A stretch of 64,000 nucleotides of DNA. It comes from Sinanodonta woodiana (lineage: Eukaryota). Position numbers and translations under genes: made by a program. Shown here piece by piece: positions 14,108 through 48,533 of the stretch. Below the pieces are notes generated by a model. It saw only the letters and a program-made list of their open reading frames with translations. It ran no database searches and was not told where the DNA came from. The stretch spans positions 93,766,727-93,830,726 of the forward strand of contig CM100994.1 in NCBI GenBank assembly GCA_046254885.1, in the 5' to 3' direction. Every line of letters begins with the position of its first letter. Positions within the stretch are counted from its first letter, which is position 1.

Positions 14108-14189
14108 GTATGTTATCTGTTATCCACACCCTTTAGTACTGAGGATATTATGATACCCTCTCTCAATATTCTGGCTCTCTTTCAACAAT

Positions 14190-15400: not shown

Positions 15401-15461
15401 CTTTAATCACCTGTAGAGTTTATAAAAAGGTAACATCACATTTATGACCTAAACACAAATA

Positions 15462-17369: not shown

Positions 17370-20300
17370 AGCGACTGTAAATCACAATAACATTAGCAAG
17401 CATTACATTGTACTGTAAATCACAGTGACATTAGCAAGCATTACATTGTACTGTAAATCACAGTGACATTAGTAAGCATTACATTGTACTGTAAATCACA
17501 ACATTAGCAAGCATTACATTGTACTGTAAATAACAATGACATTAGCAAGCATTACATTGTACTGTAAATCACAACATTAGCAAGCATTACACTACTGTAA
17601 ATAACAACATTAGCAAGCATTACATTGTACTGTAAATAACAATAACATTAGCAAGCATTACATTATACTGTAAATCACAATGACATTAGCAAGCATTACA
17701 TTATACTGTAAATCACAACATTAGTAAGCATTACATTGTACTGTAAATCACAACATTAGCAAGCATTACATTGTACTGTAAATCACAATGACATTAGCAA
17801 GCATTACATTGTACTGTGAATCACAACATTAGCAAGCATTACATTGTACTGTAAATCACAACATTAGCAAGCATTACATTATACTGTTAATCACAACATT
17901 AGCAAGCATTACATTGTACTGTAAATCACAATGACATTAGCAAGCATTACATTGTACTGTAAATCACAATAACATTAGCAAGCATTACATTGTACTGTAA
18001 ATCACCATAACATTAGCAAGCATTACATTGTACTGTAAATCACAATAACATTAGCAAGCATTACACTACTGTAAATCACAACATTAGCAAGCATTACATT
18101 TTACTGTTAATCACAACATTAGCAAGCATTACATTATACTGTAAATCACAATGACATTAGCAAGCATTACATTGTACTGTAAATCACAATAACATTAGCA
18201 AGCATTACATTGTACTGTAAATAACAATGACATTAGCAAGCATTACATTGTACTGTAAATCACAACATTAGCAAGCATTACATTGTACTGTAAATCACAA
18301 CATTAGCAAGCATTACATTGTACTGTAAATCACCATAACATTAGCAAGCATTACATTGTTACTGTAAATCACAATAACATTAGCAAGCATTACATTGTAC
18401 TGGGAATCACAACATTAGCAAGCATTACATTGTACTGGGAATCACAACATTAGCAAGCATTACATTATACTGTTAATCACAACATTAGCAAGCATTACAT
18501 TGTACTGTAAATAATAGCAAGCATCACATTGTACTGTAAATAATAGCAAGCATCACATTGTACTGTAAATAATAGCAAGCATTACAATGTACTGTAAATC
18601 ACAACATTAGCAAGCCTTACATTGTACTGTAAATAATAGCAAGCATCACATTGTACTGTAAATAATAGCAAGCATTACATTGTACTGTAAATCACAACAT
18701 TAGCAAGCATTACATTGTACTGTAAATCACAACATTAGCAAGCATTACATTGTACTGTAAATCACAATAACATTAGCTAGCATTACATTGTACTGTAAAT
18801 TACAATAACATTAGCAAGCATTACATTGTACTGTAAATCACAACATTAGCAAGCATTACATTGTACTGTAAATAATAGCAAGCATCACATTGTACTGTAA
18901 ATAATAGCAAGCATTACAATGTACTGTAAATCACAACATTAGCAAGCCTTACATTGTACTGTAAATAATAGCAAGCATCACATTGTACTGTAAATAATAG
19001 CAAGCATTACAATGTACTGTAAATCACAACATTAGCAAGCATTACATTGTACTGTAAATAATAGCAAGCATCACATTGTACTGTAAATAATAGCAAGCAT
19101 TACAATGTACTGTAAATCACAACATTAGCAAGCATTACATTGTACTGTGAATCACAATAACATTAGCAAACTTTATATTGTACTGTAAATCACAATAACA
19201 TTAGCAAGCATTACATTATACTGTAAATCACAATAATATTAGCAAGTGTTACATTGTACTGTAAATCACAATAACATTAGCAAGCATTACACTACTGTAA
19301 ATCACAACATTAGCAAGCATTACATTGTACTGTAAATCACAACATTACCAAGCATTACATTGTACTGTGAATCACAATAACATTAGCAAGCATTACATTG
19401 TACTGTGAATCACAATAACATTAGCAAGCATTACATTGTACTGTAAATCGCAATGACATTAGCAAGCATTACATTGTACTGTAAATAACAATGACATTAG
19501 CAAGCACTACATTGTACTGTAAATAATAGCAAGCATTACATTTTACTGTAAATCACAATAACATTAGCTAGCATTACATTGGACTGTAAATCACAACATT
19601 AGCAAGCATTGCATTGTACTGTAAATCACAATAACATTAGCAAGCATTACATTGTACTGTAAATCACAACATTAGCAAGCATTACATTTTACTGTTAATC
19701 ACAACATTAGCAAGCATTACATTGTACTGTGAATCACAATAACTTTAGCAAGCATTACATTGTACTGTAAATCACAATAACATTAGCAAGCATTACATTG
19801 TACTGTAAATCACAATAACATTAGCAAGCATTACATTGTACTGTAAATCACAACATTAGCAAGCATTACATTTAACTGTTAATCACAACATTAGCAAGCA
19901 TTACATTGTACTGTGAATCACAATAACATTAGCAAGCATTACATTGTACTGTAAATCACAGTTACATTAGCAAGCATTACATTGTACTGTAAATCACAAT
20001 AACATTAGCAAGCATTACATTGTACTGTAAATCAGAATAACATTAGCAAGTATTACATTGTACTGTAAATCACAATGACATTAGCAAGCATTACATTGTA
20101 CTGTAAATCACCATAACATTAGCAAGCATTACATTGTACTGTAAATCACAATAACATTAGCAAGCATTACTTTGTACTGTAAATCAGAATAACATTAGCA
20201 AGTATTACATTGTACTGTAAATCACGGTGACATTAGCAAGCATTACACTACTGTAAATAACAACATTAGCAAGCATTACATTGTACTGTTAATCACAACA

Positions 20301-23300
20301 TTAGCAAGCATTACATTGTACTGTTAATCACAACATTAGCAAGCATTACATTATACTGTAAATCACCATAACATAAGCAAGCATTACACTACTGTAAATC
20401 ACAACATTAGCAAGCATTACATTGTATTGTAAATCACAACATTAGCAAGCATTACATTGTATTGTAAATCACAACATTAGCAAGCATTACATTGTATTGT
20501 AAATCACAACATTAGCAAGCATTACATTATACTGTAAATCACCATAACATAAGCAAGCATTACACTACTGTAAATCACAACATTAGCAAGCATTACATTG
20601 TATTGTAAATCACAACATTAGCAAGCATTACATTATACTGTAAATCACAACATTAGCAAGCATTACATTGTACTGTAAATCACCATAACATAAGCAAGCA
20701 TTACACTACTGTAAATCACAACATTAGCAAGCATTACATTGTACTGTAAATCACCATAACATTAGCAAGCATTACATTATACTGTAAATCACCATAACAT
20801 TAGCAAGCATTACACTACTGTTAATCACAACATTAGCAAGCATTACACTACTGTTAATCACAACATTAGCAAGCATTACATTGTACTGTAAATCACAGTG
20901 ACATTAGCAAGCATTACACTACTGTAAATCACAACATTAGCAAGCATTACATTATACTGTAAATCACAACATTAGCAAGCATTACATTGTACTGTAAATC
21001 ACAACATTAGCAAGCATTACATTATACTGTAAATCACCATAACATAAGCAAGCATTACACTACTGTAAATCACAACATTAGCAAGCATTACATTGTACTG
21101 TGAATCACAACATTAGCAAGCATTGCATTGTACTGTAAATCACAACATTAGCAAGCATTACATTGTACTGTAAATCACAACATTAGCAAGCATTACATTG
21201 TACTGTGAATCACAACATTAGCAAGCATTACATTGTACTGTAAATCACAACATTAGCAAGCATTACATTGTACTGTAAATCACAACATTAGCAAGCATTA
21301 CATTTTACTGTTAATCACAACATTAGCAAGCATTACATTGTACTGTGAATCACAATAACATTAGCAAGCATTACATTGTACTGTGAATCACAATAACATT
21401 AGCAAGCATTACATTGTACTGTAAATCACAGTTACATTAGCAAGCATTACATTGTACTGTAAATCACAATAACATTAGCAAGCATTACATTGTACTGTAA
21501 ATCAGAATAACATTAGCAAGTATTACATTGTACTGTAAATCACAATGACATTAGCAAGCATTACATTGTACTGTAAATCACAACATTAGCAAGCATTACA
21601 TTTAACTGTTAATCACAACATTAGCAAGCATTACATTGTACTGTGAATCACAATAACATTAGCAAGCATTACTTTGTACTGTAAATCAGAATAACATTAG
21701 CAAGTATTACATTGTACTGTAAATCACAGTGACATTAGCAAGCATTACACTACTGTAAATAACAACATTAGCAAGCATTACATTGTATTGTAAATCACAA
21801 CATTAGCAAGCATTACATTGTACTGTTAATCACAACATTAGCAAGCATTACATTGTACTGTGAATCACAACATTAGCAAGCATTACACTACTGTAAATCA
21901 CAACATTAGCAAGCATTACATTATACTGTAAATCACCATAACATAAGCAAGCATTACACTACTGTAAATCACAACATTAGCAAGCATTACATTGTATTGT
22001 AAATCACAACATTAGCAAGCATTACATTGTACTGTGAATCACAACATTAGCAAGCATTGCATTGTACTGTAAATCACAACATTAGCAAGCATTACATTGT
22101 ACTGTAAATCACAACATTAGCAAGCATTACATTGTACTGTGAATCACAACATTAGCAAGCATTACATTGTACTGTAAATCACAACATTAGCAAGCATTAC
22201 ATTGTACTGTAAATCACAACATTAGCAAGCTTTACATTGTACTGTGAATCACAACATTAGCAAGCATTACATTGTACTGTAAATCACAACATTAGCAAGC
22301 ATTACATTGTACTGTAAATCACAACATTAGCAAGCATTACATTGTACTGTGAATAACAACATTAGCAAGCATTACATTGTACTGGGAATCACAACATTAG
22401 CAAGCATTACATTGTACTGTGAATCACAACATTAGCAAGCATTACATTGTACTGGGAATCACAACATTAGCAAGCATTACATTGTACTGTAAATCAGAAT
22501 AACATTAGCAAGCATTACATTGTACTGGGAATCACAACATTAGCAAGCATTACATTGTACTGTGAATCACAACATTAGCAAGCATTACATTGTACTGGGA
22601 ATCACAACATTAGCAAGCATTACATTGTACTGTGAATCACAACATTAGCAAGCATTACATTGTACTGTGAATCACAACATTAGCAAGCATTGCATTGTAC
22701 TGGGAATCACAACATTAGCAAGCATTACATTGTACTGTAAATCAGAATAACATTAGCAAGCATTACATTGTACTGGGAATCACAACATTAGCAAGCATTA
22801 CATTGTACTGTGAATCACAACATTAGCAAGCATTACATTGTACTGGGAATCACAACATTAGCAAGCATTACATTGTACTGTGAATCACAACATTGGCAAG
22901 CATTACATTGTACTGTGAATCACAACATTAGCAAGCATTACATTGTACTGTGAATCACAACATTAGCAAGCATTACATTGTACTGTGAATCACAACATTA
23001 GCAAGCATTGCATTGTACTGGGAATCACAACATTAGCAAGCATTACATTGTACTGGGAATCACAACATTAGTAAGCATTACATTGTACTGGGAATCACAA
23101 CATTAGCAAGCATTACATTGTACTGGGAATCACAACATTAGCAAGCATTACATTGTACTGTAAATCAGAATAACATTAGCAAGCATTACATTGTACTGGG
23201 AATCACAACATTAGCAAGCATTACATTGTACTGTGAATCACAACATTAGCAAGCATTACATTGTACTGGGAATCACAACATTAGCAAGCATTACATTGTA

Positions 23301-24335
23301 CTGTGAATCACAACATTAGCAAGCATTACATTGTACTGTGAATCACAACATTAGCAAGCATTACATTGTACTGTGAATCACAACATTAGCAAGCATTACA
23401 TTGTACCGTGAATCACAACATTAGCAAGCATTGCATTGTACTGGGAATCACAACATTAGCAAGCATTACATTGTACTGGGAATCACAACATTAGCAAGCA
23501 TTACATTGTACTGTAAATCAGAATAACATTAGCAAGCATTACATTGTACTGGGAATCACAACATTAGCAAGCATTACATTGTACTGTGAATCACAACATT
23601 AGCAAGCATTACATTGTACTGGGAATCACAACATTAGCAAGCATTACATTGTACTGTGAATCACAACATTGGCAAGCATTACATTGTACTGTGAATCACA
23701 ACATTAGCAAGCATTACATTGTACTGTGAATCACAACATTAGCAAGCATTACATTGTACTGTGAATCACAACATTAGCAAGCATTGCATTGTACTGGGAA
23801 TCACAACATTAGCAAGCATTACATTGTACTGGGAATCACAACATTAGTAAGCATTACATTGTACTGGGAATCACAACATTAGCAAGCATTACATTGTACT
23901 GGGAATCACAACATTAGCAAGCATTACATTGTACTGTAAATCAGAATAACATTAGCAAGCATTACATTGTACTGGGAATCACAACATTAGCAAGCATTAC
24001 ATTGTACTGTGAATCACAACATTAGCAAGCATTACATTGTACTGGGAATCACAACATTAGCAAGCATTACATTGTACTGTGAATCACAACATTAGCAAGC
24101 ATTACATTGTACTGTGAATCACAACATTAGCAAGCATTACATTGTACTGTAAATCACAACATTAGCAAGTATTACATTGTACCGTGAATCACAACATTAG
24201 CAAGCATTGCATTGTACTGGGAATCACAACATTAGCAAGCATTACATTGTACTGGGAATCACAACATTAGTAAGCATTACATTGTACTGGGAATCACAAC
24301 ATTAGCAAGCATTACATTGTACTGGGAATTACAAC
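17370..24335. repeat. About 7-kb satellite array. The unit is about 35 bp (cattagcaagcattacattgtactgtaaatcacaa), with 39- and 41-bp variants (..aatcacaat(a/g)acattagc..) and a 29-30-bp variant block at about 18490-19100. About 190 copies. The distal third shows alternating variants (gggaatcac / gtgaatcac) and a periodic cagaataacattagc variant.
   Basis: Direct reading of the sequence. Subfamily structure and alternating variants are visible. Confidence 0.95.
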
Positions 24336-30155: not shown

Positions 30156-30162
30156 GTAGAGT

Positions 30163-30450
30163 AGCAGCAGAGGGGTCGTATCTGACAGCTTTTTTTGCTT
30201 AAACACGATTAAGGCCTCAAAACGATAAAACGAGCCTTCCTTCAAAATCTCACATTTCGAACCAAAAAAAAATTTAGTCCCCGTTTGTCAAACAGAGCCC
30301 TAGCAGTTAAAGCCGTTGTTTGCCAAAATGAGACCTATAACAGTATTTTTTTTGTTAACATATATCACCGTTGCAACAGGCTCGTGCTTCCGTTTCCATG
30401 GCTAATCAAACTTTTGCCTGAAATTTGTAAAGTTCGACCCCTCTGCTGCT
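30163..30450. repeat. Left TIR (288 bp). The TIR is itself bounded by 16-bp inverted repeats (agcagcagaggggtcg ... cgacccctctgctgct).
   Basis: Read directly in the sequence. The same nested structure appears in the right TIR at 35442-35723. Confidence 0.9.
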
Positions 30451-30463
30451 AAGGGTTACGGTT

Positions 30464-31134
30464 TCAACAAAAAAAATTATCAAGTCCGATACGATATCGT
30501 GTTTGAGGATCATATAAATTAATCGTTACAAATCCATGCGGAGCCGACTGAGCATGACTAAAAAAGTTTTTAAAAACATTAAAATCCATGTTTCCACCGC
30601 ACCAAGTTTGCCAGATATTGCGTAGCGTATGCGTATCAACGCCGTTAAACACAGCAAGGATGTTACAGTTGTCCCTGATTACCTTTGGAATCTGAGTGTA
30701 TCGTTGAGTGACATATCACATCAGTGCTTTTATGCCTTCCTCGCGAAAATATTCTAGCGGGTTTTTTTTGATTGTCTAACATAACGTCATCGTACACAAC
30801 TAATTTGGTAACGCTACCGTCTATATCGTCAATGGATGGTGCGTCATCGATATCTGTAATAAACTCTGACACTGTTTTCGGTGATCTCTGATGCATTATC
30901 GTTAAAATCCTTTAACACCTCGTAGCACCGTTGATCATCTACGCTAGGTGCAACTAAATATAACTTGTTCCATTTCATCCATCTTATTATTAGATTGAGT
31001 AGCAATTGCGTTTTTCCGCTCCCAGATGGTCCGATTATAATCATCCGGATAGAATTTGGTAGCGCTGCAACGTGTTTAACCGGTTCCCTTGTCGTAGTCG
31101 CTGAAAAATCAATTACATTCATATCGCTATACAT
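30464..31134 (-). pseudogene. FtsK/HerA-superfamily, poxvirus-A32-like DNA-packaging ATPase of about 223 aa, disrupted by two frameshifts (near 30850-30895 and near 30705-30715).
   Basis: Three consecutive minus-strand ORFs in different frames carry, in order: Walker A IIIGPSGSGKTQLLLNL; then ..LYLVAPS.., then Walker B KLVVYDDVM.. and SRGRH; then (after a frame change) VTQRYTQIPKVIRDNCNILAVFNGV.., which is the Q..iPk.iR.N.n motif region characteristic of A32/polinton/virophage packaging ATPases. Confidence 0.8.
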
Positions 31135-31139
31135 TAATT

Positions 31140-31430
31140 ATGGATCTATATTGTGTAAAGTGTAAAACGCGTACTAGTACAAACGATATGATGACGGTTA
31201 CCACAAAAAGCAATCGAGCAGCCCTTACTGGTAAGTGTGCAACATGCGGTGTAAAGAAATTTAAATTTATTTCCGCTAAGGGTATTAAAAAAAGCGAGGA
31301 GGTGATATTGCAGCCAAAGTATCAAAACTCTCCGGAATTCGGGTTAACATCTATAACATCAAATACATCAGCTGGTCTTGGTGGTCGATCGACTGCAGCT
31401 TCGTGTTTTGCCTTTACCCTATTATACTGA
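31140..31430 (+). CDS. Small C4 zinc-ribbon protein (CVKC..17 aa..CATCG). The zinc-ribbon core of about 55 aa lies exactly in the gap between two minus-strand ORFs.
   Basis: MDLYCVKCKTRTSTNDMMTVTTKSNRAALTGKCATCGVKKFKFISAKG: CxxC-x17-CxxC with basic residues. The 3' half of the ORF overlaps the convergent 183-aa ORF and may be non-coding. Confidence 0.45.
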   Translation: MDLYCVKCKTRTSTNDMMTVTTKSNRAALTGKCATCGVKKFKFISAKGIKKSEEVILQPKYQNSPEFGLTSITSNTSAGLGGRSTAASCFAFTLLY

Positions 31431-31873
31431 ATATGATTAGCGTTATTAGTAGTATCCTTAGCGAACATCATTGACGGGCCTGCTGACCTTGTATAGTCGT
31501 CAGAATATCTTGCTAGCCCGATTACTGTTGTTGCAACATCGACATCGTTTTCTATAGATTCGATTTCTCGCCCGTCAATGAGATATCTTGCTGAACCAAA
31601 TAACGCCATGATGCCGTTGTTGACAAAACCAACTCGGACATTTGCGTCATCTGCGTATGGATTATTATTTGCTTGAATAAGTTCTCCTTCGATTTCGATA
31701 AACGCTTCACACGGCAAAAAGTATTTACTGGTATCATGGACTTGAAGTTTAATTCGCGATCGTAGGTCAGGTTGTTCTGCATGATAAGAATAATACTGAT
31801 AATCACGGACAGAATCATCCTTGCGCACTGGCGCGTCCATATCGAAGGCCGGATCAGCTGTTCTTTGAAACAT
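31322..31873 (-). CDS. 183-aa ORF in the viral-like element. Function unknown. A structural or capsid-like role is inferred from its position next to the packaging ATPase.
   Basis: Uninterrupted ORF with CpG-rich viral-like composition. No motif I can assign with confidence. Its start overlaps the stop of the upstream 169-aa ORF in another frame, which suggests the two may be fragments of one larger gene. Confidence 0.4.
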   Translation of the reverse strand: MFQRTADPAFDMDAPVRKDDSVRDYQYYSYHAEQPDLRSRIKLQVHDTSKYFLPCEAFIEIEGELIQANNNPYADDANVRVGFVNNGIMALFGSARYLIDGREIESIENDVDVATTVIGLARYSDDYTRSAGPSMMFAKDTTNNANHIQYNRVKAKHEAAVDRPPRPADVFDVIDVNPNSGEF

Positions 31874-31902
31874 ATTATTGTAATTGCGTTGACGTTTTCA
31901 AT

Positions 31903-32412
31903 TCATCGTCGTTTTCGTTGTAAATGTTTCAAATTTCTTTTTAAATTCTCTGACGCTAGACCGCTTCCTGCTATCGCGTTCAACAGCGTATTCGTTGTTG
32001 TATCAGAAGATGGCGAGGCCGCTAGCAACGCAGCCGGAGCCGCCAACGAAGTTAGTTTTTTTTCTACTGCATCGTTTATTACGCTGGCTACACTTTTAGG
32101 CATCACTGTGGTAGAAGGTAACGGCGTTGGTTTTTGTCGCTGCCGTCTCACCAGTGATACTGTTTTGTCTTTTGCTGCAGAAAGTGCCTTGCTGGCAAGG
32201 CTACCAACAGCGCTGATTCCTTTATCACGTAACACATCTATGGCTTTCGTTGATAGTTGTTTAGCTAACGGTGCCACCTTGGGAGCCATTCTTGCAAATA
32301 AACCCGCTATGGTGTCACCGAGACCATTCCCATAAAACGCGCGGTAAACTGGTAATCGTGAGTTTACAACGTAAACGCTGACTGGTTTATCATGGTTGTA
32401 ATGTATGATCAT
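31903..32412 (-). CDS. 169-aa ORF, rich in Ala/Ser/Lys and low-complexity. Possibly a minor virion or membrane-interacting protein, or part of a fragmented larger gene.
   Basis: ORF only. Its composition resembles the A/G/S-rich minor capsid or cement proteins of adeno- and polinton-like viruses. This is inference. Confidence 0.35.
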   Translation of the reverse strand: MIIHYNHDKPVSVYVVNSRLPVYRAFYGNGLGDTIAGLFARMAPKVAPLAKQLSTKAIDVLRDKGISAVGSLASKALSAAKDKTVSLVRRQRQKPTPLPSTTVMPKSVASVINDAVEKKLTSLAAPAALLAASPSSDTTTNTLLNAIAGSGLASENLKRNLKHLQRKRR

Positions 32413-32474
32413 CTTATAACAACTAGCAGTTTTTTAATTATGAAAAACCCCACGAAGATAAATTGACCCACAGT

Positions 32475-32885
32475 TTAGTCGCTGTGATAACCATCCATGA
32501 GTTCGTCTATGGGTTCTCGATATGTGCCAACGTCCATGATACCCCCACGGAATAAACGCGCGCAAATATCTGGTGATTCATTAATTATTTCCGGTAAATT
32601 ATTTCCGGCTCGTATTCCTCCAATAAGAACCTGAAGACGTGATATATCACTGAGAATATTGCCTGGACAAGTAATACTAGCGCTTCCAACTACGCCACTA
32701 CGTAAATATCCGTGTCCTTTTTTAGAGGTGCCAGTTACCCCATCGTCTTTTTGTTTTTGTTTTTGTAGCCACTCGACCCGTCTACTTTTAACGAGATCAC
32801 TAAAAGCTTTGAAATTTTCATCTTTTGGTGGTAGTGTATTTCTGTGTATCCGCGCCAAGTACATCATTCGAATCCATTTATCCAA
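32475..32885 (-). CDS. 136-aa ORF, function unknown.
   Basis: ORF co-oriented with the neighbouring element genes. Confidence 0.35.
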   Translation of the reverse strand: MDKWIRMMYLARIHRNTLPPKDENFKAFSDLVKSRRVEWLQKQKQKDDGVTGTSKKGHGYLRSGVVGSASITCPGNILSDISRLQVLIGGIRAGNNLPEIINESPDICARLFRGGIMDVGTYREPIDELMDGYHSD

Positions 32886-32997
32886 CGCGGATACATTTTC
32901 CTCGTAACCTGGATTTGCATGTATCTCTCGTTGACGCAGGTAAAAATGTTCAACAGTAAAATCAATTACTTGATCCCATTTATCAAAGCCTCTAATT

Positions 32998-33501
32998 TTA
33001 TCTATTGTACTTTTTTTTAAATACTTTACTGGGTATATTTTCTCTGATATCTCTTTGTTGCTGTATTATATCATCTATTTCTTGTTGTGTTTCTTGTTGT
33101 AATAGCTCTTCTTCTGGTTGCATTGCGGTGGCACCTGGCTCCTCTTCATCAGCCATTGTAACATAAGGTTGCTGTTGTTCAGATGTTGATGTTATAGCAA
33201 GTGGCTGCTTCACATCCCCCCGTCGGCGATATGCTGTAGCAACTGCTATTTCCACAGGAAGTGTTTCCAGATACTTTTTTGATTGTTTGGTCTGCGCTGT
33301 TATCTTTTCAAGTTCGCCAAGAATGGGTGTAGTTGCACTGGTTATTGGCTTAAATAACTGTTCACTTCCAACAACAAAATCGTCTTTTTGTTCTTGGCGA
33401 GTCTGCAACTGCTTCCTTAGCCTATCTCGTACAGGAATAAACTGTTTAATAGCAGTCAAACGCTCCCTGGCCGATTTGGTTGTAAGCGATTCATTCACCA
33501 T
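32998..33501 (-). CDS. 167-aa ORF, acidic and Gln-rich with predicted coiled or disordered character. Possibly a scaffold- or phosphoprotein-like product.
   Basis: ORF. An EEEPGATAMQPEEELLQQETQQEIDDIIQQQ acidic stretch. Confidence 0.35.
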   Translation of the reverse strand: MVNESLTTKSARERLTAIKQFIPVRDRLRKQLQTRQEQKDDFVVGSEQLFKPITSATTPILGELEKITAQTKQSKKYLETLPVEIAVATAYRRRGDVKQPLAITSTSEQQQPYVTMADEEEPGATAMQPEEELLQQETQQEIDDIIQQQRDIRENIPSKVFKKKYNR

Positions 33502-33723
33502 GTATTATTACGTTACAGTTTCAAAATGATTTTCAAATTTCCCGCGAGTGTATATAAACACAGACTGGTACTATGTTAAACTGCATGTTAGCGAGTACAG
33601 TAACATTTTTACCAAGGAATGCTAAATAGTTGTCTTATACATATAATTACACGCAGTAACAATTTTACGTATATAAATTGCAAAAAAAATATAAGTTTTG
33701 TTTGTTATTAACAGAATTAATTA

Positions 33724-34026
33724 TTAATTTGATTCCTCGATAATCTTTTTTATGTGCTTGACTTGCTGGTAAATCTCTTTTCGGACCTCGAAAGCATTGC
33801 CAAGTCGTTTCCGTATTGTTTCAACGATAGTGTACAATTCAATAAATACTTTTACGTCTTGGTTATATAAATTTTGATGAATCGCATATTGTAATCGCTT
33901 TTTAAAGGCATATGACCTAGGTAGCGTATTACGACCTTTTTTTGATTGCTGGTCAATAAGTTCATACTGCGATACAATATTTTCGACGTCAAGTTTATCA
34001 TTCAAGACGACCCCTTGATTTTTCAA
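33724..34026 (-). CDS. 100-aa basic ORF, the first gene of the minus-strand block. Function unknown.
   Basis: ORF followed by an AT-rich putative promoter region at 34030-34130. Confidence 0.3.
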   Translation of the reverse strand: MKNQGVVLNDKLDVENIVSQYELIDQQSKKGRNTLPRSYAFKKRLQYAIHQNLYNQDVKVFIELYTIVETIRKRLGNAFEVRKEIYQQVKHIKKIIEESN

Positions 34027-34165
34027 TTTTGAAATTTCATCCGTTATATTTTTTATATCAACACTAATATTTTTATCTTGATCATTTATTATTATATTAA
34101 CAATTTATATCTTTGATTTTAAAAAAAAAACAAAACAAGAAAAACAAGGCAAGACAATGCAGGCA

Positions 34166-34220
<55 letters not shown>

Positions 34221-34222
34221 TT
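34166..34222. repeat. (ATT)19 microsatellite followed by a poly-T run.
   Basis: Read directly in the sequence. Confidence 0.95.
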
Positions 34223-35039
34223 TTTTTTTTTTTTAAAAATGCAAAATAATTGACAGGCTTATTATGAGCGGTTATTCATTATCACGAGTCCCTTATTCAG
34301 GCCTTTGTGTCTCCATAGGGTCTTTTTACAAACACATATTTTACATTTTTCACATATAGACAACACCAAGGTCAGTCAAACCCATTCTGGGTTTGCCCAT
34401 TCCCGGGCATTTCCGACCTTTGCCCTATGATCGTTTCTGTAGGCCGGTAGCCCATTCTGTGCTACCCTATTGGGATCCTCGTGAGAATTTAGAGCTTTCA
34501 TCAATGCCTGTCATTTATTTTTACGTCCACACACTTTGACGCCCAGATAAGTAATCTCCGGCAAGCAACCTATCTCAGCAAACACTGTGATAGGTTACTT
34601 ATAAGGTACATATTTGGGGGTGGGCGGATCCTTCGAAAGCCTACGAACCAATCAAAAGCAACCCAGAAAATTAACCTGGTTGCATTGACAGAAAACAGTC
34701 AACCTTACGACCGAGGTAACGGCGTGGGTTGCTTTTTTTTATTTGCTTTGCAAGCTTTCGAAAGCTCCAAAAGCTTAACGACTCATATTCTATATAAGCT
34801 GAATGATGCAGCGATATCAAGGAAAAGGTTGTGCTAATTTGAATCGCTTTGAACCATTAAATCGCTAAGAACTTATTAATAGCGTTCAACAGCACTTAAA
34901 TAAAACCAAATATTTGAAACAAATAATAAACAAAAGAATACAGCGTTGCGATAACAGCATAAATTTCATTAGTTTTTATTTTAAAAAAATGAATTAATCA
35001 AAACATTAATTGGACTTCAAGGGGAGATCACTCTAAGTG

Positions 35040-35432
35040 ACTTTTATGGAGTTACCTCCCCTTAAAAAATTATCTTCCCTTGAATTTTTTTATCTCCCCT
35101 TGAAATTTTTTTTATCTCCCCTTGAAAAAAATATCTCTCCTTTAAAAAAATTTCTCCCCTTTAAATTTTTTTTTTATCTCCCCTTGAAATTTTGTATCTC
35201 CCTTTGAATTTTTTTATCTCCCCTTGAAAAACAGAGTTATCTCCTCTTAAAAAAGTTATCTCCCCTTAAAAAAATTACCTCCCTTGAAAAAATAATTACC
35301 TCCCTTTGAAAAAAATTATCTCCCCTTAAAAAAGTTATCTCCCCTTAAAAAAGTTATCTCCCTTAAAAAAAGTTATCTCCCCTTAAAAAAATACCTCCCC
35401 TTAAATTTTTTTTATCTCCCCTTGAAAAAAAA
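35040..35432. repeat. Tandem repeat of about 19-21 bp (ttatctccccttgaaaaaa), about 19 copies, inside the element and abutting the right TIR.
   Basis: Read directly in the sequence. Confidence 0.9.
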
Positions 35433-35441
35433 AATTAACAC

Positions 35442-35723
35442 AGCAGCAGAGGGGTCGAACCCTACAAATTTCAGGCAAAAGTTTGATTAGCTGTGGAAAC
35501 GGAAGCGCGAGCCTGTTGCAACGGTGATATATTTTAACAAAAAAATACTGTTATAGGTCTCATTTTGGCAAACAACGGCTTTAACTGCTAAAGCTCTGTT
35601 TGACAAACGGGGACTAAATTTTTTTGTTTGTTTGAAATGTGAGATTTTGAAGGAAGGCTCGTTTTATCGTTTTGAGGCCTTAATCGTGTTTAAGCAAAAA
35701 AAGTTGTCCAATACTCTGCTGCT
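35442..35723. repeat. Right TIR (282 bp) of the viral-like element. It is also bounded by the 16-bp inverted repeats agcagcagaggggtcg ... cgac(c/t)c.. / ..ctctgctgct.
   Basis: It is the reverse complement of 30163-30450. Confidence 0.9.
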
Positions 35724-36715
35724 AGAGTAAAACAGAAATAAGTAAATTACATTTTTCTGAAATATTTCAAGGTAGATTTTGTCAGCATTTAGAAAATAAC
35801 GCATTGTTTCTGTGAACATAGAAAAAGGAAAGCAAATAATGGCATTTGAGGTATACAGGAATAGTCAGTGTTTGTCCTTGTGTTTTTGGATCACCTGGCC
35901 TTACAGTCAAGTGAGCTTTTAATGTCGTCCTCTATTTGTATGCCATTCATCAACATTTGTTTTGTTATCTCTCTGGAGACTGATTGCTATCCAGTTTTGA
36001 TCAGGTAGGAATATGGGCTTATATCATCCAGAGTTTTAAAGAGAAAGATAATGACCAGGATTGTGTGTATCCTTGGCATGACTGCACTCAAGAGATTGTA
36101 TTTCTGATCTGATTTTGTATTAGGTTGGTAGGTAGGCTTAAATCATCAATATTTCAAATGAATACTGTTGTGAGTGAGCTCCATGCAGTATGTTAATGAG
36201 ATGATATTTTGTCTAATTGACTAAAATTGTCAGTATGTTTGTAACTCAATTTCTTATCAGATATTTATCAAACATGTTTAAGCTGTCCATGAATTTATTA
36301 TGAGCAAAATCTGTACATATTAATAAAGTGTCCTTGCATCAGATTTGTTGAGCTTCTTATCAGTCAGAACCTGATTGTGATCAAACCTGATTGTGATCAA
36401 ATCCAATTTGACTTTGTACGTTTTCTAAAATCATCAAGAATATAGTTATGAGCTGTTTATCAAACTTGATAAATTGGCTTATGTCATTAAGATCTTGATT
36501 TATTTGTTCTGTGTGAGATTCACACATCACTGGTGTCATCGAACTGACTGAGTTAGTCAGCATTCTAGCAAATATACTTCTGATGAGATTTTAATCAAAT
36601 TAGCTTATATTTTCAAGATGTTGGATGAGTTTGTTTAGGAGTAAATTCTGAATATTTACAAGTTAATACACTTTGATCTGTATCAATAAAGTATTTATTC
36701 CATCTTATTGTCTGA

Positions 36716-38089: not shown

Positions 38090-40950
38090 GTAGGTCTGTA
38101 GTTTGTAATAGCTGGTCTCTGCCTAAATTGTGGAAACAGTTTGCAATAGCTAGTCTCTGCCTAAGCTGTGGAGACAGTTTGTAATAACTGGTCTCTGCCT
38201 AAACTGTGGAGAGTTTGCAATAGCTGTTCTCTGCTTAAACTGTGGAGAGTTTGCAATAGCTGGTCTCTGCATAAACTGTGGAGAGTTTGTAATAACTGGT
38301 CTCTGCCTAAGATGTGGAGAGTTTGCAATAGCTGGTCTCTGCCTAAACTGTGGAGAGTTTGCAATAGCTGGTATCTGCCTAAACTGTGGAGAGTTTGCAA
38401 TTGCTGGTCGCTGCATAAACTGTGGAGACAGTTTGTAATAACTGGAACTGTGGAGACAGTTTGTAATAACTGGTCTCTGCCTAAACTGTGGAGAGTTTGC
38501 AATAGCTGGTGTCTGCCTAAGTTGTGGAGAGTTTGCAATAGCTGGTCTCTGCCTAAACTGTGGAGACAGTTTGTAACAACTGGTCTCTGCCTAAACTGTG
38601 GAGAGTTTGCAATAGCTGGTCTCTGCATAAACTGTGGAGACATTTTGTAATAGCTGGTCTCTGCCTAAACTGTGGAGAGTTTGCAATAGCTGGTCTCTGC
38701 CTAAGTTGTGGAGACAGTTTGTAATAACTGGTCTCTGCCTAAACTGTGGAGACAGTTTGTAATGACTGGTCTCTGCCTAAACTGTGGAGAGTTTGCAATA
38801 GCTAGTCTCTAAGTTGTGGAGAGTTTGCAATAGCTGGTCTCTGCCTAAACTGTGGAGACAGTTTGTAATAACTGGTCTCTGCCTAAACTGTGGAGACAGT
38901 TTGTAATAACTGGTCTCTGCCTAAACTGTGGAGACAGTTTGTAATAGCTGGTCTCTGCCTAAGTTGTGGAGACAGTTTGTAATAGCTTGTCTCTGCCTAA
39001 ACTGTAGAGACAGTTTGTAATAGCTGGTCTCTGCCTAAACTGTGGAGACAGTTTGCAATAGCTGGTCTCTGCCTGAGTTGTGGAGACAGTTTGTAATAAC
39101 TGGTCTCTGCCTAAATTGTGGAGACAGTTTTTAATAGCTTGTCTCTGCCTAAATTGTGGAAACAGTTTGCAATAGCTAGTCTCTGCTTAAACTGTGGAGA
39201 CAGTTTGTAATAACTGGTCTCTGCCTAAGCTGTGGAGAGTTTGCAATAGCTGGTCTCTGCCTAAACTGTGGAGAGTTTGCAATAGCTGGTATCTGCCAAA
39301 GTTGTGGAGAGAGTTTATAATAACTAGTCTCTGCCTAAACTGTGGAGAGTTTGCAATAGCTGGTCTCTGCATAAACTGTGGAGACAGTTTGTAATAACTG
39401 GTCTCTGCATAAGCTGTGGAGACAGTTTGCAATAGCTGGTCTCTGCATAAACTGTGGAGACAGTTTGTAATAACTGGTGTCTGCCTAAACTGTGGAGAGT
39501 TTGCAATAGCTGGTGTCTGCCTAAGTTGTGGAGAGTTTGCAATAGCTGGTCTCTGCCTAAACTGTGGAGACAGTTTGTAATAACTGGTCTCTGCCTAAAC
39601 TGTGGAGAGTTTGCAATAGCTAGTCTCTGCCTAAGTTGTGGAGAGTTTGCAATAGCTGGTCTCTGCATAAACTGTGGAGACAGTTTGTAATAGCTTATCT
39701 CTGCCTAAATTGTGGAGAGAGTTTGTAATAACTGTTCTCTGCCTAAACTGTGGAGACAGTTTGTAATAACTGGTCTCTGCCTAAACTGTGGAGACAGTTT
39801 GTAATAACTGGTCTCTGCCTAAACTGTGGAGACAGTTTGTTATAACTGGTCTCTGCATTAACTGTGGAGACAGTTTGTAATAGCTGGTCTCTGCCTAAAC
39901 TGTGGAGACAGTTTGTAATAACTGGTCTCTGCATAAACTGTGGAGACAGTTTGTAATAACTGGTCTCTGCCTAAACTGTAGAGACATTTTGTAATAGTTG
40001 GTCTCTGCCTAAACTGTGGAGACAGTTTGCAAGAGCTAGTCTCTGCCTAAACTGTGGAAACAGTTTGTAATAGCTGGTCTCTGCCTAAACTGTGGAGACA
40101 GTTTGTAATAGCTAGTCTCTGCCTGAGTTGTGGAGACAGTTTGTAATAGCTGGTCTCTGCCTAAGTTGTGGAGACAGTTTGTAATAACTGGTCTCTGCCT
40201 AAACTGTGGAGACAGTTTGTAATAGCTAGTCTCTGCCTAAGTTGTGGAGACAGTTTGTAATAACTGGTCTCTGCCTAAACTGTGGAGACAGTTTGTAATA
40301 GTTAGTCTCTGCCTAAGTTGTGGAGACAGTTTGTAATAGCTAGTCTCTGCCTAAGCTGTGGAGACAGTTTGTAATAGTTAGTCTCTGCCTAAGTTGTGGA
40401 GACAGTTTGTAATAGCTGGTCTCTGCCTAAACTGTAGAGACAGTTTGTAATAGCTGGTCTCTGCCTAAACTGTGGAGACAGTTTTTAATAGCTGGTCTCT
40501 GCCTAAACTGTGGAGACAGTTTGTAATAGCTGGTGTCTGCCTAAACTGTGGAGACAGTTTGTAATAGCTAGTCTCTGCCTGAGTTGTGGAGACAGTTTGT
40601 AATAACTGGTCTCTGCCTAAACTGTGGAGACAGTTTGTAATAGTTAGTCTCTGCCTAAGTTGTGGAGACAGTTTGTAATAGCTAGTCTCTGCCTAAGCTG
40701 TGGAGACAGTTTGTAATAGTTAGTCTCTGCCTAAGTTGTGGAGACAGTTTGTAATAGCTGGTCTCTGCCTAAACTGTAGAGACAGTTTGTAATAGCTGGT
40801 CTCTGCCTAAACTGTGGAGACAGTTTTTAATAGCTGGTCTCTGCCTAAACTGTGGAGACAGTTTGTAATAGCTGGTCTCTGCCTAAACTGTGGAGACAGT
40901 TTTTAATAGCTAGTCTCTGCCTAAGTTGTAGAGACAGTTTGTAATAGCTG
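38090..40950. repeat. 2.9-kb satellite with a 38-41-bp unit (ctgtggagacagtttgtaatagctggtctctgcctaaa), about 70 copies.
   Basis: Read directly in the sequence. The overlapping 160-aa ORFs on both strands are artifacts. Confidence 0.95.
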
Positions 40951-42522: not shown

Positions 42523-43289
42523 GTAAAAATTGTTACATAACATCACATATCTCATACATTTTAACTGTTCTTATGAAATTTTCTTAAATAGACTTTAAAA
42601 GTTGTGAGGTTTTTCTTTGCAAAGGTTCATAACATGTAAAATTAATTCAGCTTATTTCATATAGAACAAAATTAAGTTTGATGTAGAAAGAATTGTTTGT
42701 TTGATGTAGAAATAGTTCAGCTTGTTTCATATGGATACAGTTCAGTTTGTTTTGTATAATAACAGTTTACCGGTAGTTTGTTTCATATAAAAATATGGAT
42801 ATTGAATTCAAATGGAGTTTTTTTTTTATATATAAAGAATTCAGTTCGTTTTTTGTATTAGAAAAATCAGTTTGTTTTGTATACAAAGAAAACTGTTTTG
42901 TATTACAAAAAGTCAGTTTGTTTTGTATAGAAGGAATTAGCATATTTGTAAAAATCATACTATATTACTCAGAATTTACAGAGTAAAAAAGAACTCAAAA
43001 GTCAAAATAGAATGTTATACATCATAGTCTTCCACTTGGCATCAGTACTGTTAGCCAAGACCAATTCTATTGTATTATCACCTTTTGAAATTGGCATCCC
43101 TTACTTTCAGGGATTTAAATTAAAAAAGTATTGATGAGGAGTATTACAAATATCTTGATAAACATTGTAAAGATATTGCTGAATATAAAAAAAGTATTGA
43201 TGAACACAAAACTTTTGATAAAGATTAAAAAAGTCATGAACTTTAAAGAAGTCTTGAAAAATATAAAAAGAAATTGAAAAAGTTTTTGT

Positions 43290-45545
43290 CAAGATTGAAA
43301 TTAAGTATTGATGAACATAAACTTGGTCTAGTTGAATACAGAAAATCTTGTGATGAACATAAACATGGTCTAGTTGAATACAGAAAATCTTGTGATGAAC
43401 ATAAACTTGCTCTAGTTGAATACAGAAAATCTTGTGATGAACATAAACTTGGTCTAGTTGAATACAGAAAATCTTGTGATGAACATAAACTTGCTCTAGT
43501 TGAATACAGAAAATCTTGTGATGAACATAAACTTGCTCTAGTTGAATACAGAAAATCTTGTGATGAACATAATAAACTTGCTCTAGTTGAATACAGAAAA
43601 TCTTGTGATGAACATAAACTTGCTCTAGTTGAATACAGAAAATCTTGTGATGAACATAATAAACTTGCTCTAGTTGAATACAGAAAATCTTGTGATGAAC
43701 ATAAACTTGGTCTAGTTGAATACAGAAAATCTTGTGATGAACATAAACTTGGTCTAGTTGAATACAGAAAATCTTGTGATGAACATAAACTTGCTCTAGT
43801 TGAATACAGAAAATCTTGTGATGAACATAAACTTGCTCTAGTTGAATACAGAAAATCTTGTGATGAACATAAACTTGGTCTAGTTGAATACAGAAAATCT
43901 TGTGATGAACATAATAAACTTGCTCTAGTTGAATACAGAAAATCTTGTGATGAACATAATAAACTTGCTCTAGTTGAATACAGAAAATCTTGTGATGAAC
44001 ATAAACTTGGTCTAGTTGAATACAGAAAATCTTGTGATGAACATAAACTTGGTCTAGTTGAATACAGAAAATCTTGTGATGAACATAAACTTGCTCTAGT
44101 TGAATACAGAAAATCTTGTGATGAACATAAACTTGCACTAGTTGAATACAGAAAATCTTGTGATGAACATAATAAACTTGGTCTAGTTGAATACAGAAAA
44201 TCTTGTGATGAACATAAACTTGGTCTAGTTGAATACAGAAAATCTTGTGATGAACATAAACTTGCTCTAGTTGAATACAGAAAATCTTGTGATGAACATA
44301 AACTTGCTCTAGTTGAATACAGAAAATCTTGTGATGAACATAAACTTGCTCTAGTTGAATACAGAAAATCTTGTGATGAACATAATAAACTTGCTCTAGT
44401 TGAATACAGAAAATCTTGTGATGAACATAAACTTGCTCTAGTTGAATACAGAAAATCTTGTGATGAACATAATAAACTTGCTCTAGTTGAATACAGAAAA
44501 TCTTGTGATGAACATAAACTTGGTCTAGTTGAATACAGAAAATCTTGTGATGAACATAAACTTGGTCTAGTTGAATACAGAAAATCTTGTGATGAACATA
44601 AACTTGCTCTAGTTGAATACAGAAAATCTTGTGATGAACATAAACTTGCTCTAGTTGAATACAGAAAATCTTGTGATGAACATAATAAACTTGCTCTAGT
44701 TGAATACAGAAAATCTTGTGATGAACATAAACTTGCTCTAGTTGAATACAGAAAATCTTGTGATGAACATAATAAACTTGCTCTAGTTGAATACAGAAAA
44801 TCTTGTGATGAACATAAACTTGGTCTAGTTGAATACAGAAAATCTTGTGATGAACATAATAAACTTGCTCTAGTTGAATATAGAAAATCTTGTGATGAAC
44901 ATAAACTTGCTCTAGTTGAATACAGAAAATCTTGTGATGAACATAATAAACTTGCTCTAGTTGAATACAGAAAATCTTGTGATGAACATAAACTTGCTCT
45001 AGTTGAATACAGAAAATCTTGTGATGAACATAAACTTGGTCTAGTTGAATACAGAAAATCTTGTGATGAACATAAACTTGCTCTAGTTGAATACAGAAAA
45101 TCTTGTGATGAACATAAACTTGCTCTAGTTGAATACAGAAAATCTTGTGATGAACATAATAAACTTGCTCTAGTTGAATACAGAAAATCTTGTGATGAAC
45201 ATAAACTTGGTCTAGTTGAATACAGAAAATCTTGTGATGAACATAAACTTGGTCTAGTTGAATACAGAAAATCTTGTGATGAACATAAACTTGCTCTAGT
45301 TGAATACAGAAAATCTTGTGATGAACATAAACTTGCTCTAGTTGAATACAGAAAATCTTGTGATGAACATAATAAACTTGCTCTAGTTGAATACAGAAAA
45401 TCTTGTGATGAACATAAACTTGCTCTAGTTGAATACAGAAAATCTTGTGATGAACATAAACTTGGTCTAGTTGAATACAGAAAATCTTGTGATGAACATA
45501 AACTTGCTCTAGTTGAATACAGAAAATCTTGTGATGAACATAAAG
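43290..45545. repeat. 2.3-kb satellite with 60/63-bp units (tcttgtgatgaacataaacttg(c/g)tctagttgaatacagaaaa, with an optional +aat), about 37 copies. It is flanked by degenerate related repeats at 43100-43290 and 45545-45960.
   Basis: Read directly in the sequence. The 898-aa and 760-aa ORFs across it are repeat artifacts (perfectly periodic translations). Confidence 0.95.
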
Positions 45546-46164
45546 AAAACTCTTGATGAAGATAAAATAATTTTGATAAAATATGAAAAGTCTTGATAAA
45601 AATAGAAAGCTCTTGATGGCAATAAAATGGTGATGATAAGAATTTAAAATGTTTTGCCTATTATAAAAATGATGAATGTAAAAAAATGTCTTGCATATTA
45701 TAAAAAGTCTTGGATGATATATTATAAAACTCATGATTAATATAATTTTAAAAAAAAATTCAAAAAATTCTTGATGAACATAAAATGGTCTTGACGAAAA
45801 CAAGAAAACATTGGTGAACAGTATTCTGGTCTCTCCAGATGAAAATTAAAAGTTCATGATGAATATTAAAAAAGGTCTTGATAAATATAAATATTCCTAG
45901 TGACTATGAAAAGGTCTTGATGAAAACAAAATGGTTGTTGAACTTTAAAAATTATTGGAGCAGTATTTGAGTAGTGGTTGTGTACATACATTTATTGTCA
46001 CAAGCTTTGAACACCATTCCTTCATAATAGATTGTCACATTCAAATTGGCATCCCCTTGGAGGCTCTCATTTGATAAATTTTAATATCAAAATCATGCTT
46101 GTTTAATATATTTTTTTAACATAGTTTTGCTTTAAGGAAAAATATAAATAATTTTCCCATGATG

Positions 46165-46930: not shown

Positions 46931-47319
46931 CACCAATTGGGATTTATAGTTTTCTACATTCAGATTCTAGCCCATAAGTAACCCCCCACAGAGAGAGCCC
47001 ATAAGTAACCCCCCACAGAGAGAGCCAAAGATATTAAATTATTTAAGTTATTTTATTTATGATGTTGATGTTGTTGAATATTGATAAAAGTAAATGGTAG
47101 TTGATTTGAGAGAAAGGGAGTGAGTGAGCGATATATGCAAATACTTGTGTATTATCCTATATTTTCTTACAATGCATGTATTAAATCTTTCCTTGTACAT
47201 TTTAGTATTTTTAGTTGTGTATACATTGCAGCATTAAAGTCTCTCATACCAGTTTTAACAACTTCAATAGAAATATGGTATATAATCAACACAATGTGTT
47301 TCTGGCTTCACTTAAGTCA

Positions 47320-48470: not shown

Positions 48471-48533
48471 TTTAATTTCATTGAAATTATCTCATATATT
48501 TTGTACAGTTGTAAATCTTTTTATTGCTTACAG

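What the first reader, a model, noticed from the sequence alone, without database searches (positions are those of the whole stretch)
30464..31134. A32-like packaging ATPase is split across three reading frames, suggesting a decaying endogenous copy
Walker A lies in ORF 30844-31134, Walker B and the arginine finger lie in ORF 30663-30896, and the C-terminal Q..IPK.IRDN region continues only after a +1 shift near 30710 into ORF 30464-30652. Reconstructed, the protein is about 223 aa, the normal size for this family. Two frameshifts in a short gene argue for an inactivated endogenous copy or sequencing indels, not a functional gene. Adjacent ORFs overlap in different frames (31873/31903), which suggests further frameshifts in a larger structural gene.
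Basis: seen in the sequence. Interest (0 to 1): 0.6.

Follow-up and report, generated by a model that had tools for sequence, protein, structure and literature searches.

The report
Frameshifted ATPase in defective endogenous virus
The split gene is a real viral DNA-packaging ATPase broken by two 2-bp deletions, and it sits in a gutted 5.6-kb polinton/adintovirus-like insertion in what looks like a freshwater-mussel genome, which is an ordinary kind of viral fossil there.

Summary
On the minus strand, 31134->30464 encodes an A32-like (FtsK/HerA) packaging ATPase read in three frames. The rejoined protein passes Pfam Pox_A32 (45.8 bits, cut-off 22.8) and is up to 88% identical to intact 219-223 aa homologues.

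A DNA alignment with seven relatives shows the cause: two 2-bp deletions. TT is lost at 30866/30867, and one AT unit of an (AT)3 run is lost at 30713-30716.

The gene lies in a 5,561-bp element (30163-35723). It has 284-290 nt terminal inverted repeats, 95% identical, with 5'-AGCAGCAG termini and a 5-bp target-site duplication (AGAGT). One internal deletion, joined at about 31341-31346, fused codon ~183 of the double-jelly-roll capsid gene to codon ~67 of the integrase gene. Everything between them is gone. A third frameshift splits a 363-aa gene at an A8 run (33011-33018).

So this is a defective endogenous polinton/adintovirus-like copy. The ATPase itself is barely decayed apart from the frameshifts: window-branch dN/dS is about 0.09, and 2 of 48 family-invariant residues are changed.

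That is a natural gene boundary.

Read-level proof of the indels is not available. Unionid mussel genomes are already reported to be full of such degraded regions, so interest is low.

The parts
30158..30162 (.). Left copy of the 5-bp target-site duplication AGAGT. An alternative register gives a 7-bp TAGAGTA at 30157-30163.
   Evidence: The same pentamer lies directly outside both termini. The termini themselves are fixed by five independent insertions that all end in ...CTGCTGCT followed by unrelated flanks.
30163..30451 (.). Left terminal inverted repeat, with outer terminus 5'-AGCAGCAGAGGGGTCG. The arm is itself bounded by an inverted copy of the 17-nt terminal motif (30162-30178 and 30435-30451).
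   Evidence: 269 matches, 14 mismatches and 3 indel events against 35441-35724; the motif occurs 3 times in the window, against 0.01 expected by chance.
30464..31134 (-). A32-like (FtsK/HerA) genome-packaging ATPase pseudogene, read in three frames: 31134-30868, 30866-30717 and 30715-30464. The likely native start is the second Met, at 31122.
   Evidence: For the 88%-identical intact homologue P0001, the predicted fold matches viral packaging ATPases and FtsK/HerA proteins.
30866..30867 (-). Frameshift 1: a 2-bp deletion (TT) between these two bases, relative to all 7 aligned relatives.
   Evidence: alignment columns 508-509.
30713..30716 (-). Frameshift 2: a 2-bp deletion, (AT)3 shortened to (AT)2, between the codons for DVI and YVT.
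   Evidence: alignment columns 661-662.
31140..31340 (+). First ~67 codons (DUF5679 zinc ribbon) of the gene divergent from the ATPase. In relatives this gene continues into PLA2-like and rve integrase domains. Here it is cut off and runs into antisense capsid sequence until a stop at 31430.
   Evidence: DUF5679 at E=1.6e-12. L002 has a 493-aa ORF with DUF5679, PLA2 and rve. DNA homology to all relatives stops at 31337-31340; 96% identity to P0076 ends at residue 67.
31341..31346 (.). Junction of the internal deletion. Capsid codon ~183 on the minus strand is joined to integrase-gene codon ~67 on the plus strand.
   Evidence: plus the sequence itself (GTTAAC|CCGAATTCCGG).
31347..31873 (-). N-terminal ~38% (about 175-183 aa) of a double-jelly-roll major capsid protein. 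The remaining ~300 aa are absent.
   Evidence: homologues carry PF21738 and include unionid mussel proteins; in L014 the capsid continues for 322 more aa with DJR-like_dom at E=5.5e-17.
31903..32412 (-). Apparently intact 169-aa gene of unknown function, with a basic C-terminus. It is conserved upstream of the capsid gene in relatives.
   Evidence: 64-67% identity over the full length to the 155-166 aa proteins of L013, L014 and L016.
32478..33504 (-). Homologue of a 363-aa virion-module gene, split into two frames (33501-33013 and 33032-32493).
   Evidence: tblastn with L013 176-1267.
33011..33018 (-). Frameshift 3: an A8 homopolymer where the 363-aa gene changes frame. It has one A too many, or two too few.
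   Evidence: IPSKVFKK|STIDKIRGF here against IPSLILTKASRDEIRGY in L013.
33727..34104 (-). 126-codon open stretch of unknown status, inside the element.
   Evidence: no Pfam hit and no homologue found among the loci fetched.
35045..35437 (.). AT-rich array of 19-22 nt tandem repeats just inside the right TIR.
35441..35723 (.). Right terminal inverted repeat, ending ...CTCTGCTGCT.
35724..35728 (.). Right copy of the target-site duplication AGAGT.

Best explanation
A polinton/adintovirus-like dsDNA virus integrated into the germline of the host through its retrovirus-type integrase. The host is most likely a unionid freshwater mussel. Integration left 284-290 nt terminal inverted repeats with 5'-AG...CT-3' ends and a 5-bp target duplication.

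This copy (30163-35723, 5.56 kb) is defective. A single internal deletion joined the capsid gene at codon ~183 to the integrase gene at codon ~67. That removed the rest of the capsid gene, the downstream virion genes, the replication module and the integrase catalytic domain.

The packaging ATPase is the terminal gene next to the left repeat. It would normally be a hexameric FtsK/HerA-type motor that pumps the genome into preformed capsids. With no selection on it, it picked up two 2-bp slippage-type deletions that put Walker A, Walker B and the C-terminal domain in three different frames. A neighbouring 363-aa gene picked up a homopolymer frameshift.

Shown directly: the gene's identity, the exact indels, the repeats, the target duplication, and the truncations on both sides of the junction. 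Inferred: that the indels are real mutations rather than assembly errors, that the deletion was one event, and the host identity.
For: - Indels: two 2-bp deletions against 7 of 7 relatives.
- Element: TIRs 95% identical. The terminus ...CTGCTGCT is followed by unrelated flanks in the window and in L001, L003, L007 and L010. AGAGT lies directly outside both ends.
- Truncations: integrase-side homology stops at 31337-31340 in every relative. Capsid homology stops at about 31352-31420, while relatives continue for about 300 aa and then into a 160-aa gene and an adenain-like gene.
- Third frameshift.
- Decay is the norm in this family. L005 has a stop codon and a lost ATG, L010 a 1-bp deletion, and L012 a stop plus a frameshift. 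L013, L014 and L015 have fragmented capsid genes.
- Host: partial hits are annotated proteins of Sinanodonta woodiana and Potamilus streckersoni.
- Literature: unionid genomes hold the highest dsDNA viral-region content reported, mostly polinton-like, with pseudogenisation common (bioRxiv 10.1101/2025.04.19.649669). Degraded endogenous adintoviruses with frameshifts are described in PMC8502044.
- Rate check: the TIR arms differ by 3 indel events in about 580 nt. Three frameshifts in about 3 kb of coding sequence is therefore not more than neutral decay would give (my inference).
Against: - No reads are available, so the two 2-bp deletions and the A8 length are not verified.
- Apart from the frameshifts, the ATPase looks selected. 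Window-branch dN/dS is about 0.09 on sites invariant in four close relatives. Only 2 of 48 family-invariant residues are changed, no more than in several intact homologues. That fits very recent inactivation, but it fits an intact gene with assembly errors equally well.
- The fuller relative L016 has the ATPase followed directly by the 363-aa gene rather than by a terminus. The gene order I infer for the full-length ancestor therefore rests on the five terminal loci, not on a complete reference genome.
- No empty-site allele was available to confirm the target duplication.
Confidence: 0.8

Rival explanations
1. The ATPase is actually intact, and the two frameshifts (and perhaps the A8 one) are assembly or polishing errors in a long-read assembly. 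The element would still be an internally deleted copy, but with a complete ATPase ORF.
For: - The ATPase keeps a purifying-selection signature and almost all invariant residues.
- No in-frame stop codon occurs in the rejoined frame.
- The third shift is in an A8 homopolymer, a classic long-read error site.
- Fully resolved multi-kilobase minisatellite arrays suggest a long-read assembly.
Against: - Both ATPase indels are 2-bp losses, one in a 2-nt run (TT) and one in a 3-unit dinucleotide repeat. They are not the 1-bp homopolymer errors typical of long reads.
- The A8 run inside the ATPase itself (30762-30769) is in frame.
- Relatives from independent assemblies carry comparable lesions.
- The copy is defective regardless, so no selection would maintain the ORF.
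Confidence: 0.13
2. The 5.56-kb unit was already a deleted, non-autonomous derivative when it integrated. It would resemble a defective-interfering genome or a non-autonomous Maverick, mobilised in trans by a helper's integrase, and may be multi-copy. The ATPase frameshifts would then be later decay or irrelevant.
For: - It has clean TIRs and a TSD around a very short element.
- The terminal motif recognised at the ends is present at both ends of each TIR arm.
- The retained genes sit next to the two termini, as expected if only the ends are needed in cis.
Against: - The search for proteins spanning the deletion junction found none. All 14 homologues of the chimeric 96-aa ORF stop matching at residue ~67-80.
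- Deletion after insertion explains the same structure with no extra assumption.
- The host genome could not be searched.
Confidence: 0.2
3. The three frames are read deliberately, through programmed ribosomal frameshifting or small introns, so the gene is functional as it stands.
For: Nothing beyond the absence of stop codons in the rejoined frame.
Against: - Intact relatives encode the same protein in one continuous ORF.
- The shifts coincide exactly with 2-bp deletions relative to those ORFs.
- The 2-bp gaps leave no room for introns.
- Two consecutive +1/-2 events in a 220-codon gene have no precedent that I know of (own knowledge).
Confidence: 0.01

Closest known systems
Endogenised adintoviruses and Polinton/Maverick elements (Adintoviridae / Polintoviricetes; Starrett et al. 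2021, PMC8502044; Krupovic, Bamford & Koonin 2014, PMC4028283)
   Same: - Double-jelly-roll capsid gene and an A32/FtsK-type packaging ATPase.
- rve integrase in relatives, and a parvovirus-type PLA2 domain in relatives.
- An adenain-like protease in relatives, though only a weak match.
- TIRs with 5'-AG termini and a short TSD.
- Germline copies degraded by frameshifts and deletions, as in the human chromosome 7 relic.
   Different: - No protein-primed PolB was found in the window or in any relative fetched. The fullest relative (L016) carries a superfamily-1 helicase module instead, like the 'MELD viruses with other replicases'.
- In relatives PLA2 lies in the integrase gene with a DUF5679 zinc ribbon, rather than fused to a pX-like domain.
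- This copy is only 5.6 kb.
Polinton-like / Orthopolintovirales viral regions of Unionidae genomes (bioRxiv 10.1101/2025.04.19.649669)
   Same: The likely host clade is the same, since hits fall in Sinanodonta and Potamilus. The viral supergroup is the same, and short or pseudogenised ORFs are the rule there too.
   Different: I could not check whether this locus or lineage is among the 107,631 bivalve regions catalogued. That survey does not describe element termini or this deletion structure.
Poxvirus A32 / STIV2 B204 / adenovirus IVa2 / PRD1 P9-type packaging ATPases (FtsK-HerA superfamily)
   Different: Only 12-18% sequence identity to any of them. The window copy cannot make the protein, because it carries two frameshifts.

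Membership tests
A32-like packaging ATPase (Pfam PF04665, FtsK-HerA superfamily) | Profile match above the curated gathering score | tested here: met
   The rejoined protein scores 45.8 bits against a 22.8 cut-off (E=7.1e-12), covering residues 27-171 of the protein and positions 12-159 of the profile.
A32-like packaging ATPase (Pfam PF04665, FtsK-HerA superfamily) | Walker A (GxxxxGK[ST]) and Walker B (hhhhDD) in the canonical order, followed by a conserved Arg/His and a Gln motif | tested here: met
   GPSGSGKT is at 31009-31032 and LVVYDD at 30786-30803. SRGRHK and YVTQRYTQ are invariant or nearly invariant in the family alignment. The assignment of the arginine finger is inferred, not tested.
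A32-like packaging ATPase (Pfam PF04665, FtsK-HerA superfamily) | RecA-like FtsK/HerA fold | tested here: met
A32-like packaging ATPase (Pfam PF04665, FtsK-HerA superfamily) | Continuous ORF able to encode the enzyme | tested here: not met
   Two 2-bp deletions are present. The longest single-frame piece is 97 codons.
Polinton/Maverick in the strict sense | [quoted passage not shown] | tested here: not met
   No PolB in the element or elsewhere in the window, judged from ORF lists and Pfam on ORFs only. The fullest relative, L016, has an SF1 helicase (AAA_19/AAA_30 plus UvrD_C_2) and no PolB hit.
Polinton/Maverick in the strict sense | rve (retrovirus-like) integrase | tested here: not met
   Only the 67-codon DUF5679 stub remains in the window. 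The rve domain is present in relatives L002 and L016.
Polinton/Maverick in the strict sense | TIRs with 5'-AG...CT-3' termini and a 5-6 bp TSD (feature list from my own knowledge of Kapitonov & Jurka 2006 and Pritham et al. 2007) | tested here: met
   The arms are 284-290 nt with termini AGCAGCAG.../...CTGCTGCT, and the TSD is AGAGT.
Adintovirus-like / polinton-like virus virion module | Double-jelly-roll major capsid protein | tested here: inconclusive
   The window keeps only the N-terminal ~183 aa, which has no Pfam hit of its own. It is 70-83% identical to the N-termini of proteins whose C-terminal parts carry PF21738 DJR-like_dom.
Adintovirus-like / polinton-like virus virion module | Adenain-type maturation protease and a penton protein | tested here: not met
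   Both are absent from the window. In relatives, Peptidase_C5 scores only 16-18 bits, below the 21.3 cut-off. No penton protein was identified.

The most novel reading that the evidence does not exclude
The 5.56-kb unit is a non-autonomous, internally deleted derivative that integrated, and perhaps spread, as such. It would use a helper's integrase acting on a 17-nt terminal motif that is present, inverted, at both ends of each ~290-nt repeat arm. It would belong to a mussel-associated polinton-like lineage that replicates with an SF1 helicase module rather than protein-primed PolB.
Probability: 0.15. Interest if true: 0.4.

Novelty: new member of a known kind. Interest (0 to 1): 0.15.

Why it matters
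It matters little beyond annotation. The three ORFs should be merged and labelled as one ATPase pseudogene inside a defective endogenous polinton/adintovirus-like element. They should not be called as three hypothetical genes or as host genes.

The locus does give cleanly defined termini (AGCAGCAG...), a TSD and a datable TIR pair (about 5% divergence) for a lineage that is very abundant in unionid mussel genomes. That could help catalogue and date those insertions.

Tried and rejected
- IMG/VR scan with the ATPase profile found no relative.
- The metagenome scan returned only 1-2 kb contigs, so no complete reference element was obtained that way.
- P0039, the Sinanodonta protein, could not be located on its chromosome.
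- A PDB sequence search with the family profile gave only generic P-loop hits. The fold search was needed instead.
- PHROGs gave only a weak terminase/ATPase match for the ATPase and nothing useful for the neighbours.
- A search for other copies of the deletion junction, through the chimeric 96-aa ORF, found none.
- Programmed frameshifting and introns were considered and rejected on the DNA alignment.
- I considered that each 290-nt arm is an independent MITE insertion. I rejected this because neither arm has its own TSD while the outer pair does, and because homology among five loci ends exactly at the outer motif.
Relatives show two separate genes there.
- The long ORFs at 43107-45803 and 47120-48475 are read-through of tandem repeats, not genes.

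Full report

Yes. Reading the minus strand from 31200 to 30400 in three frames gives three open segments:
- 30847-31137, carrying Walker A (GPSGSGKT);
- 30666-30911, carrying Walker B (LVVYDD) and SRGRHK;
- 30467-30715, carrying YVTQRYTQIPKVIRDN and the C-terminus.

Joined, they give a protein of 223-227 aa. It passes the Pfam Pox_A32 model well above its curated cut-off (45.8 against 22.8 bits, E=7e-12), and the match spans both junctions.

A database search found 46 homologues. The full-length ones are single ORFs of 219-229 aa, and the closest full-length ones are 67-88% identical to the rejoined protein over its whole length. The closest intact homologue, P0001, was modelled at pLDDT 79. 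The model matches:
- A32-like ATPases of giant viruses, adenovirus IVa2, an adintovirus FtsK-like protein, Sputnik V3 and the mavirus ATPase among viral models.

**2. What exactly broke the frame?**

I aligned the window with seven related loci from metagenome contigs (A3). There are two 2-bp deletions that none of the seven relatives shares.
- Relatives read CATTGAG where the window reads CAGAG, so TT is lost between 30867 and 30866.
- Relatives read GTGATATATGTC where the window reads GTGATATGTC, so one AT unit is lost at 30713-30716.

Both have the shape of replication slippage. Neither is the single-base homopolymer change typical of long-read error, and the A8 run inside the same gene is in frame.

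Apart from these deletions, the gene is well kept.
- On codons invariant in four close relatives, the window branch has 21 synonymous and 8 non-synonymous changes, a ratio of about 0.09.
- Only 2 of 48 family-invariant residues differ: N to K in KNPARIF, and D to N. That is no more than in several intact homologues.

Inactivation is therefore recent compared with the gene's history as a working viral gene.

**3. What is around it?**

*The neighbouring gene.* A plus-strand ORF begins six bases from the ATPase start. It opens with a DUF5679 zinc ribbon. In relatives this gene continues into a parvovirus-type PLA2 domain and an rve integrase core. L002 has a 493-aa ORF with all three domains. In the window, homology to every relative stops at 31337-31340, and the 96% match to P0076 stops at residue 67.

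*The capsid fragment.* From 31347 upward the minus strand carries the first ~183 codons of a double-jelly-roll major capsid protein. It is 70-83% identical to L013, L014 and L016. In those loci the gene continues for about 300 more codons carrying PF21738, followed by a 160-aa gene and an adenain-like gene. One deletion, joined at about 31341-31346, therefore removed everything between capsid codon ~183 and integrase-gene codon ~67.

*Further upstream on the minus strand:*
- an apparently intact 169-aa gene (31903-32412);
- a homologue of a 363-aa gene split into two frames at an A8 run, 33011-33018;
- a 126-codon open stretch of unknown status;
- an AT-rich array of 19-22 nt repeats.

**4. 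The boundaries.**

Inverted repeats of 284-290 nt lie at 30162-30451 and 35441-35724, with 269 matches, 14 mismatches and 3 indel events.

In the window and in four independent relatives (L001, L003, L007, L010), the sequence beyond the ATPase ends in ...CTGCTGCT. Unrelated DNA follows in each case. The true terminus is therefore 5'-AGCAGCAG, and the ATPase is the terminal gene.

With that terminus, the pentamer AGAGT lies directly outside both ends (30158-30162 and 35724-35728), as expected for a target-site duplication. The element is 30163-35723, or 5,561 bp. Relatives of this kind run well above 10 kb: L016 holds 12.7 kb of element-like genes and is still incomplete, and the adintovirus paper gives 10-50 kb for this virus class.

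**5. Interpretation.**

This is a germline-integrated, internally deleted copy of a polinton/adintovirus-like virus. The split ATPase is one of three frameshifted or truncated genes in it.

The host is probably a unionid freshwater mussel. Partial homologues of both the ATPase and the capsid are annotated proteins of Sinanodonta woodiana and Potamilus streckersoni. The window is otherwise minisatellite-rich, AT-rich eukaryotic DNA.

Decay is the norm in the family:
- L005, L010 and L012 carry stops or frameshifts in the ATPase;
- L013, L014 and L015 have fragmented capsid genes.

The TIR arms differ by about 5% and by 3 indel events in about 580 nt. Three frameshifts in about 3 kb of coding sequence is not more than neutral decay predicts. 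This last point is my inference.

**6.

The main claim is supported: a split A32-like ATPase of about 223 aa in an inactivated endogenous copy. The side claim is not. ORFs 31322-31873 and 31903-32412 do not overlap, and they are separate genes in all relatives. The structural gene is damaged, but by truncation at about 31346, and the extra frameshift is in a different gene at 33011-33018.

**7. Rivals.**

- *Assembly error at the indel sites* cannot be excluded without reads. I give it about 0.13. It would not rescue the element.
- *A derivative that was already deleted when it integrated* is possible. I found no second copy of the junction, but I could not search the host genome.
- *Programmed frameshifting or introns* are contradicted.

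**8. Comparison with what is known.**

The element works like, and is related to, adintoviruses and Polinton/Maverick elements (PMC8502044, PMC4028283). It fails strict Maverick membership because no protein-primed PolB was found here or in the relatives fetched. L016 has an SF1 helicase module instead.

A recent survey reports that unionid genomes carry the highest load of dsDNA viral regions of any eukaryotes examined. The load is up to 16% of the assembly, mostly polinton-like, with shortened ORFs the rule (bioRxiv 10.1101/2025.04.19.649669). Against that background this locus is an ordinary example.

**9. Verdict.**

The feature is real and correctly read in its main point, and it is of low interest (0.15). 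It is a new member of a known kind.

Noticed in passing
window 30162-30451 and 35441-35724; also L003 1238-1538 and L010 978-1196: Each terminal repeat arm is itself bounded by inverted copies of the terminal motif (TAGCAGCAGAGGGGTCG ... CGACCCCTCTGCTGCTA). The integrase-end sequence therefore occurs at both the inner and outer edge of each arm. The same motif pair, 220-300 nt apart, follows the ATPase stop in relatives.
   Followed up: partly
L016 1-12686 (metagenome contig ERZ25039459 contig_35338): This is the fullest relative. It carries an SF1 helicase module (AAA_19/AAA_30 plus UvrD_C_2), an HNH endonuclease and a split rve integrase, but no PolB hit. Its ATPase is followed by a partial TIR-like segment and then the 363-aa gene, a gene order permuted relative to the window and the five terminal loci. 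Short pieces around the divergent ATPase/DUF5679 start region occur twice (about 2368-2401 and 8302-8333). This is unexplained; it may be an end-to-end junction, an inversion or a misassembly.
   Followed up: partly
window 31140-31340; P0076-P0083; L001 1551-1923; L002 435-1916: In the close relatives the DUF5679 ORF is a separate 84-97 aa reading frame that always ends ...APEHD and overlaps the start of the PLA2 frame. In the distant L002, DUF5679, PLA2 and rve form one 493-aa ORF. The frame change between DUF5679 and PLA2 may be a conserved feature (an intron, or overlapping genes) rather than decay.
   Followed up: no
window 31122-31140: The start codons of the divergent ATPase and DUF5679/integrase genes are only 5-17 nt apart (10-17 nt in L001 and L002). 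Each promoter must therefore lie inside the other gene or be shared.
   Followed up: no
window 895-2849, 14178-15404, 17374-24335, 38100-40950, 43309-45544, 47324-48472, 49079-50315, 54872-55771, 61773-63193: The window is dominated by minisatellite arrays with 26-51 nt units. One 35-mer array is 7 kb long with 196 copies. The arrays create long spurious ORFs on both strands (for example 43107-45803 and 47120-48475) and misleading Pfam hits.
   Followed up: partly
window 4676-5257 (-): A 194-codon open stretch with a DUF6451 match (E=4e-13). It looks like the C-terminal tail of a non-LTR retrotransposon ORF2, which is my own recognition and was not tested further.
   Followed up: partly
L005, L010, L012 (ATPase); L013, L014, L015 (capsid): Many relatives from independent metagenome or genome assemblies are themselves pseudogenised by stops, 1-bp deletions or split capsid ORFs. 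The 'metagenome' hits are therefore probably host (mussel) DNA carrying endogenous copies rather than free virus.
   Followed up: partly
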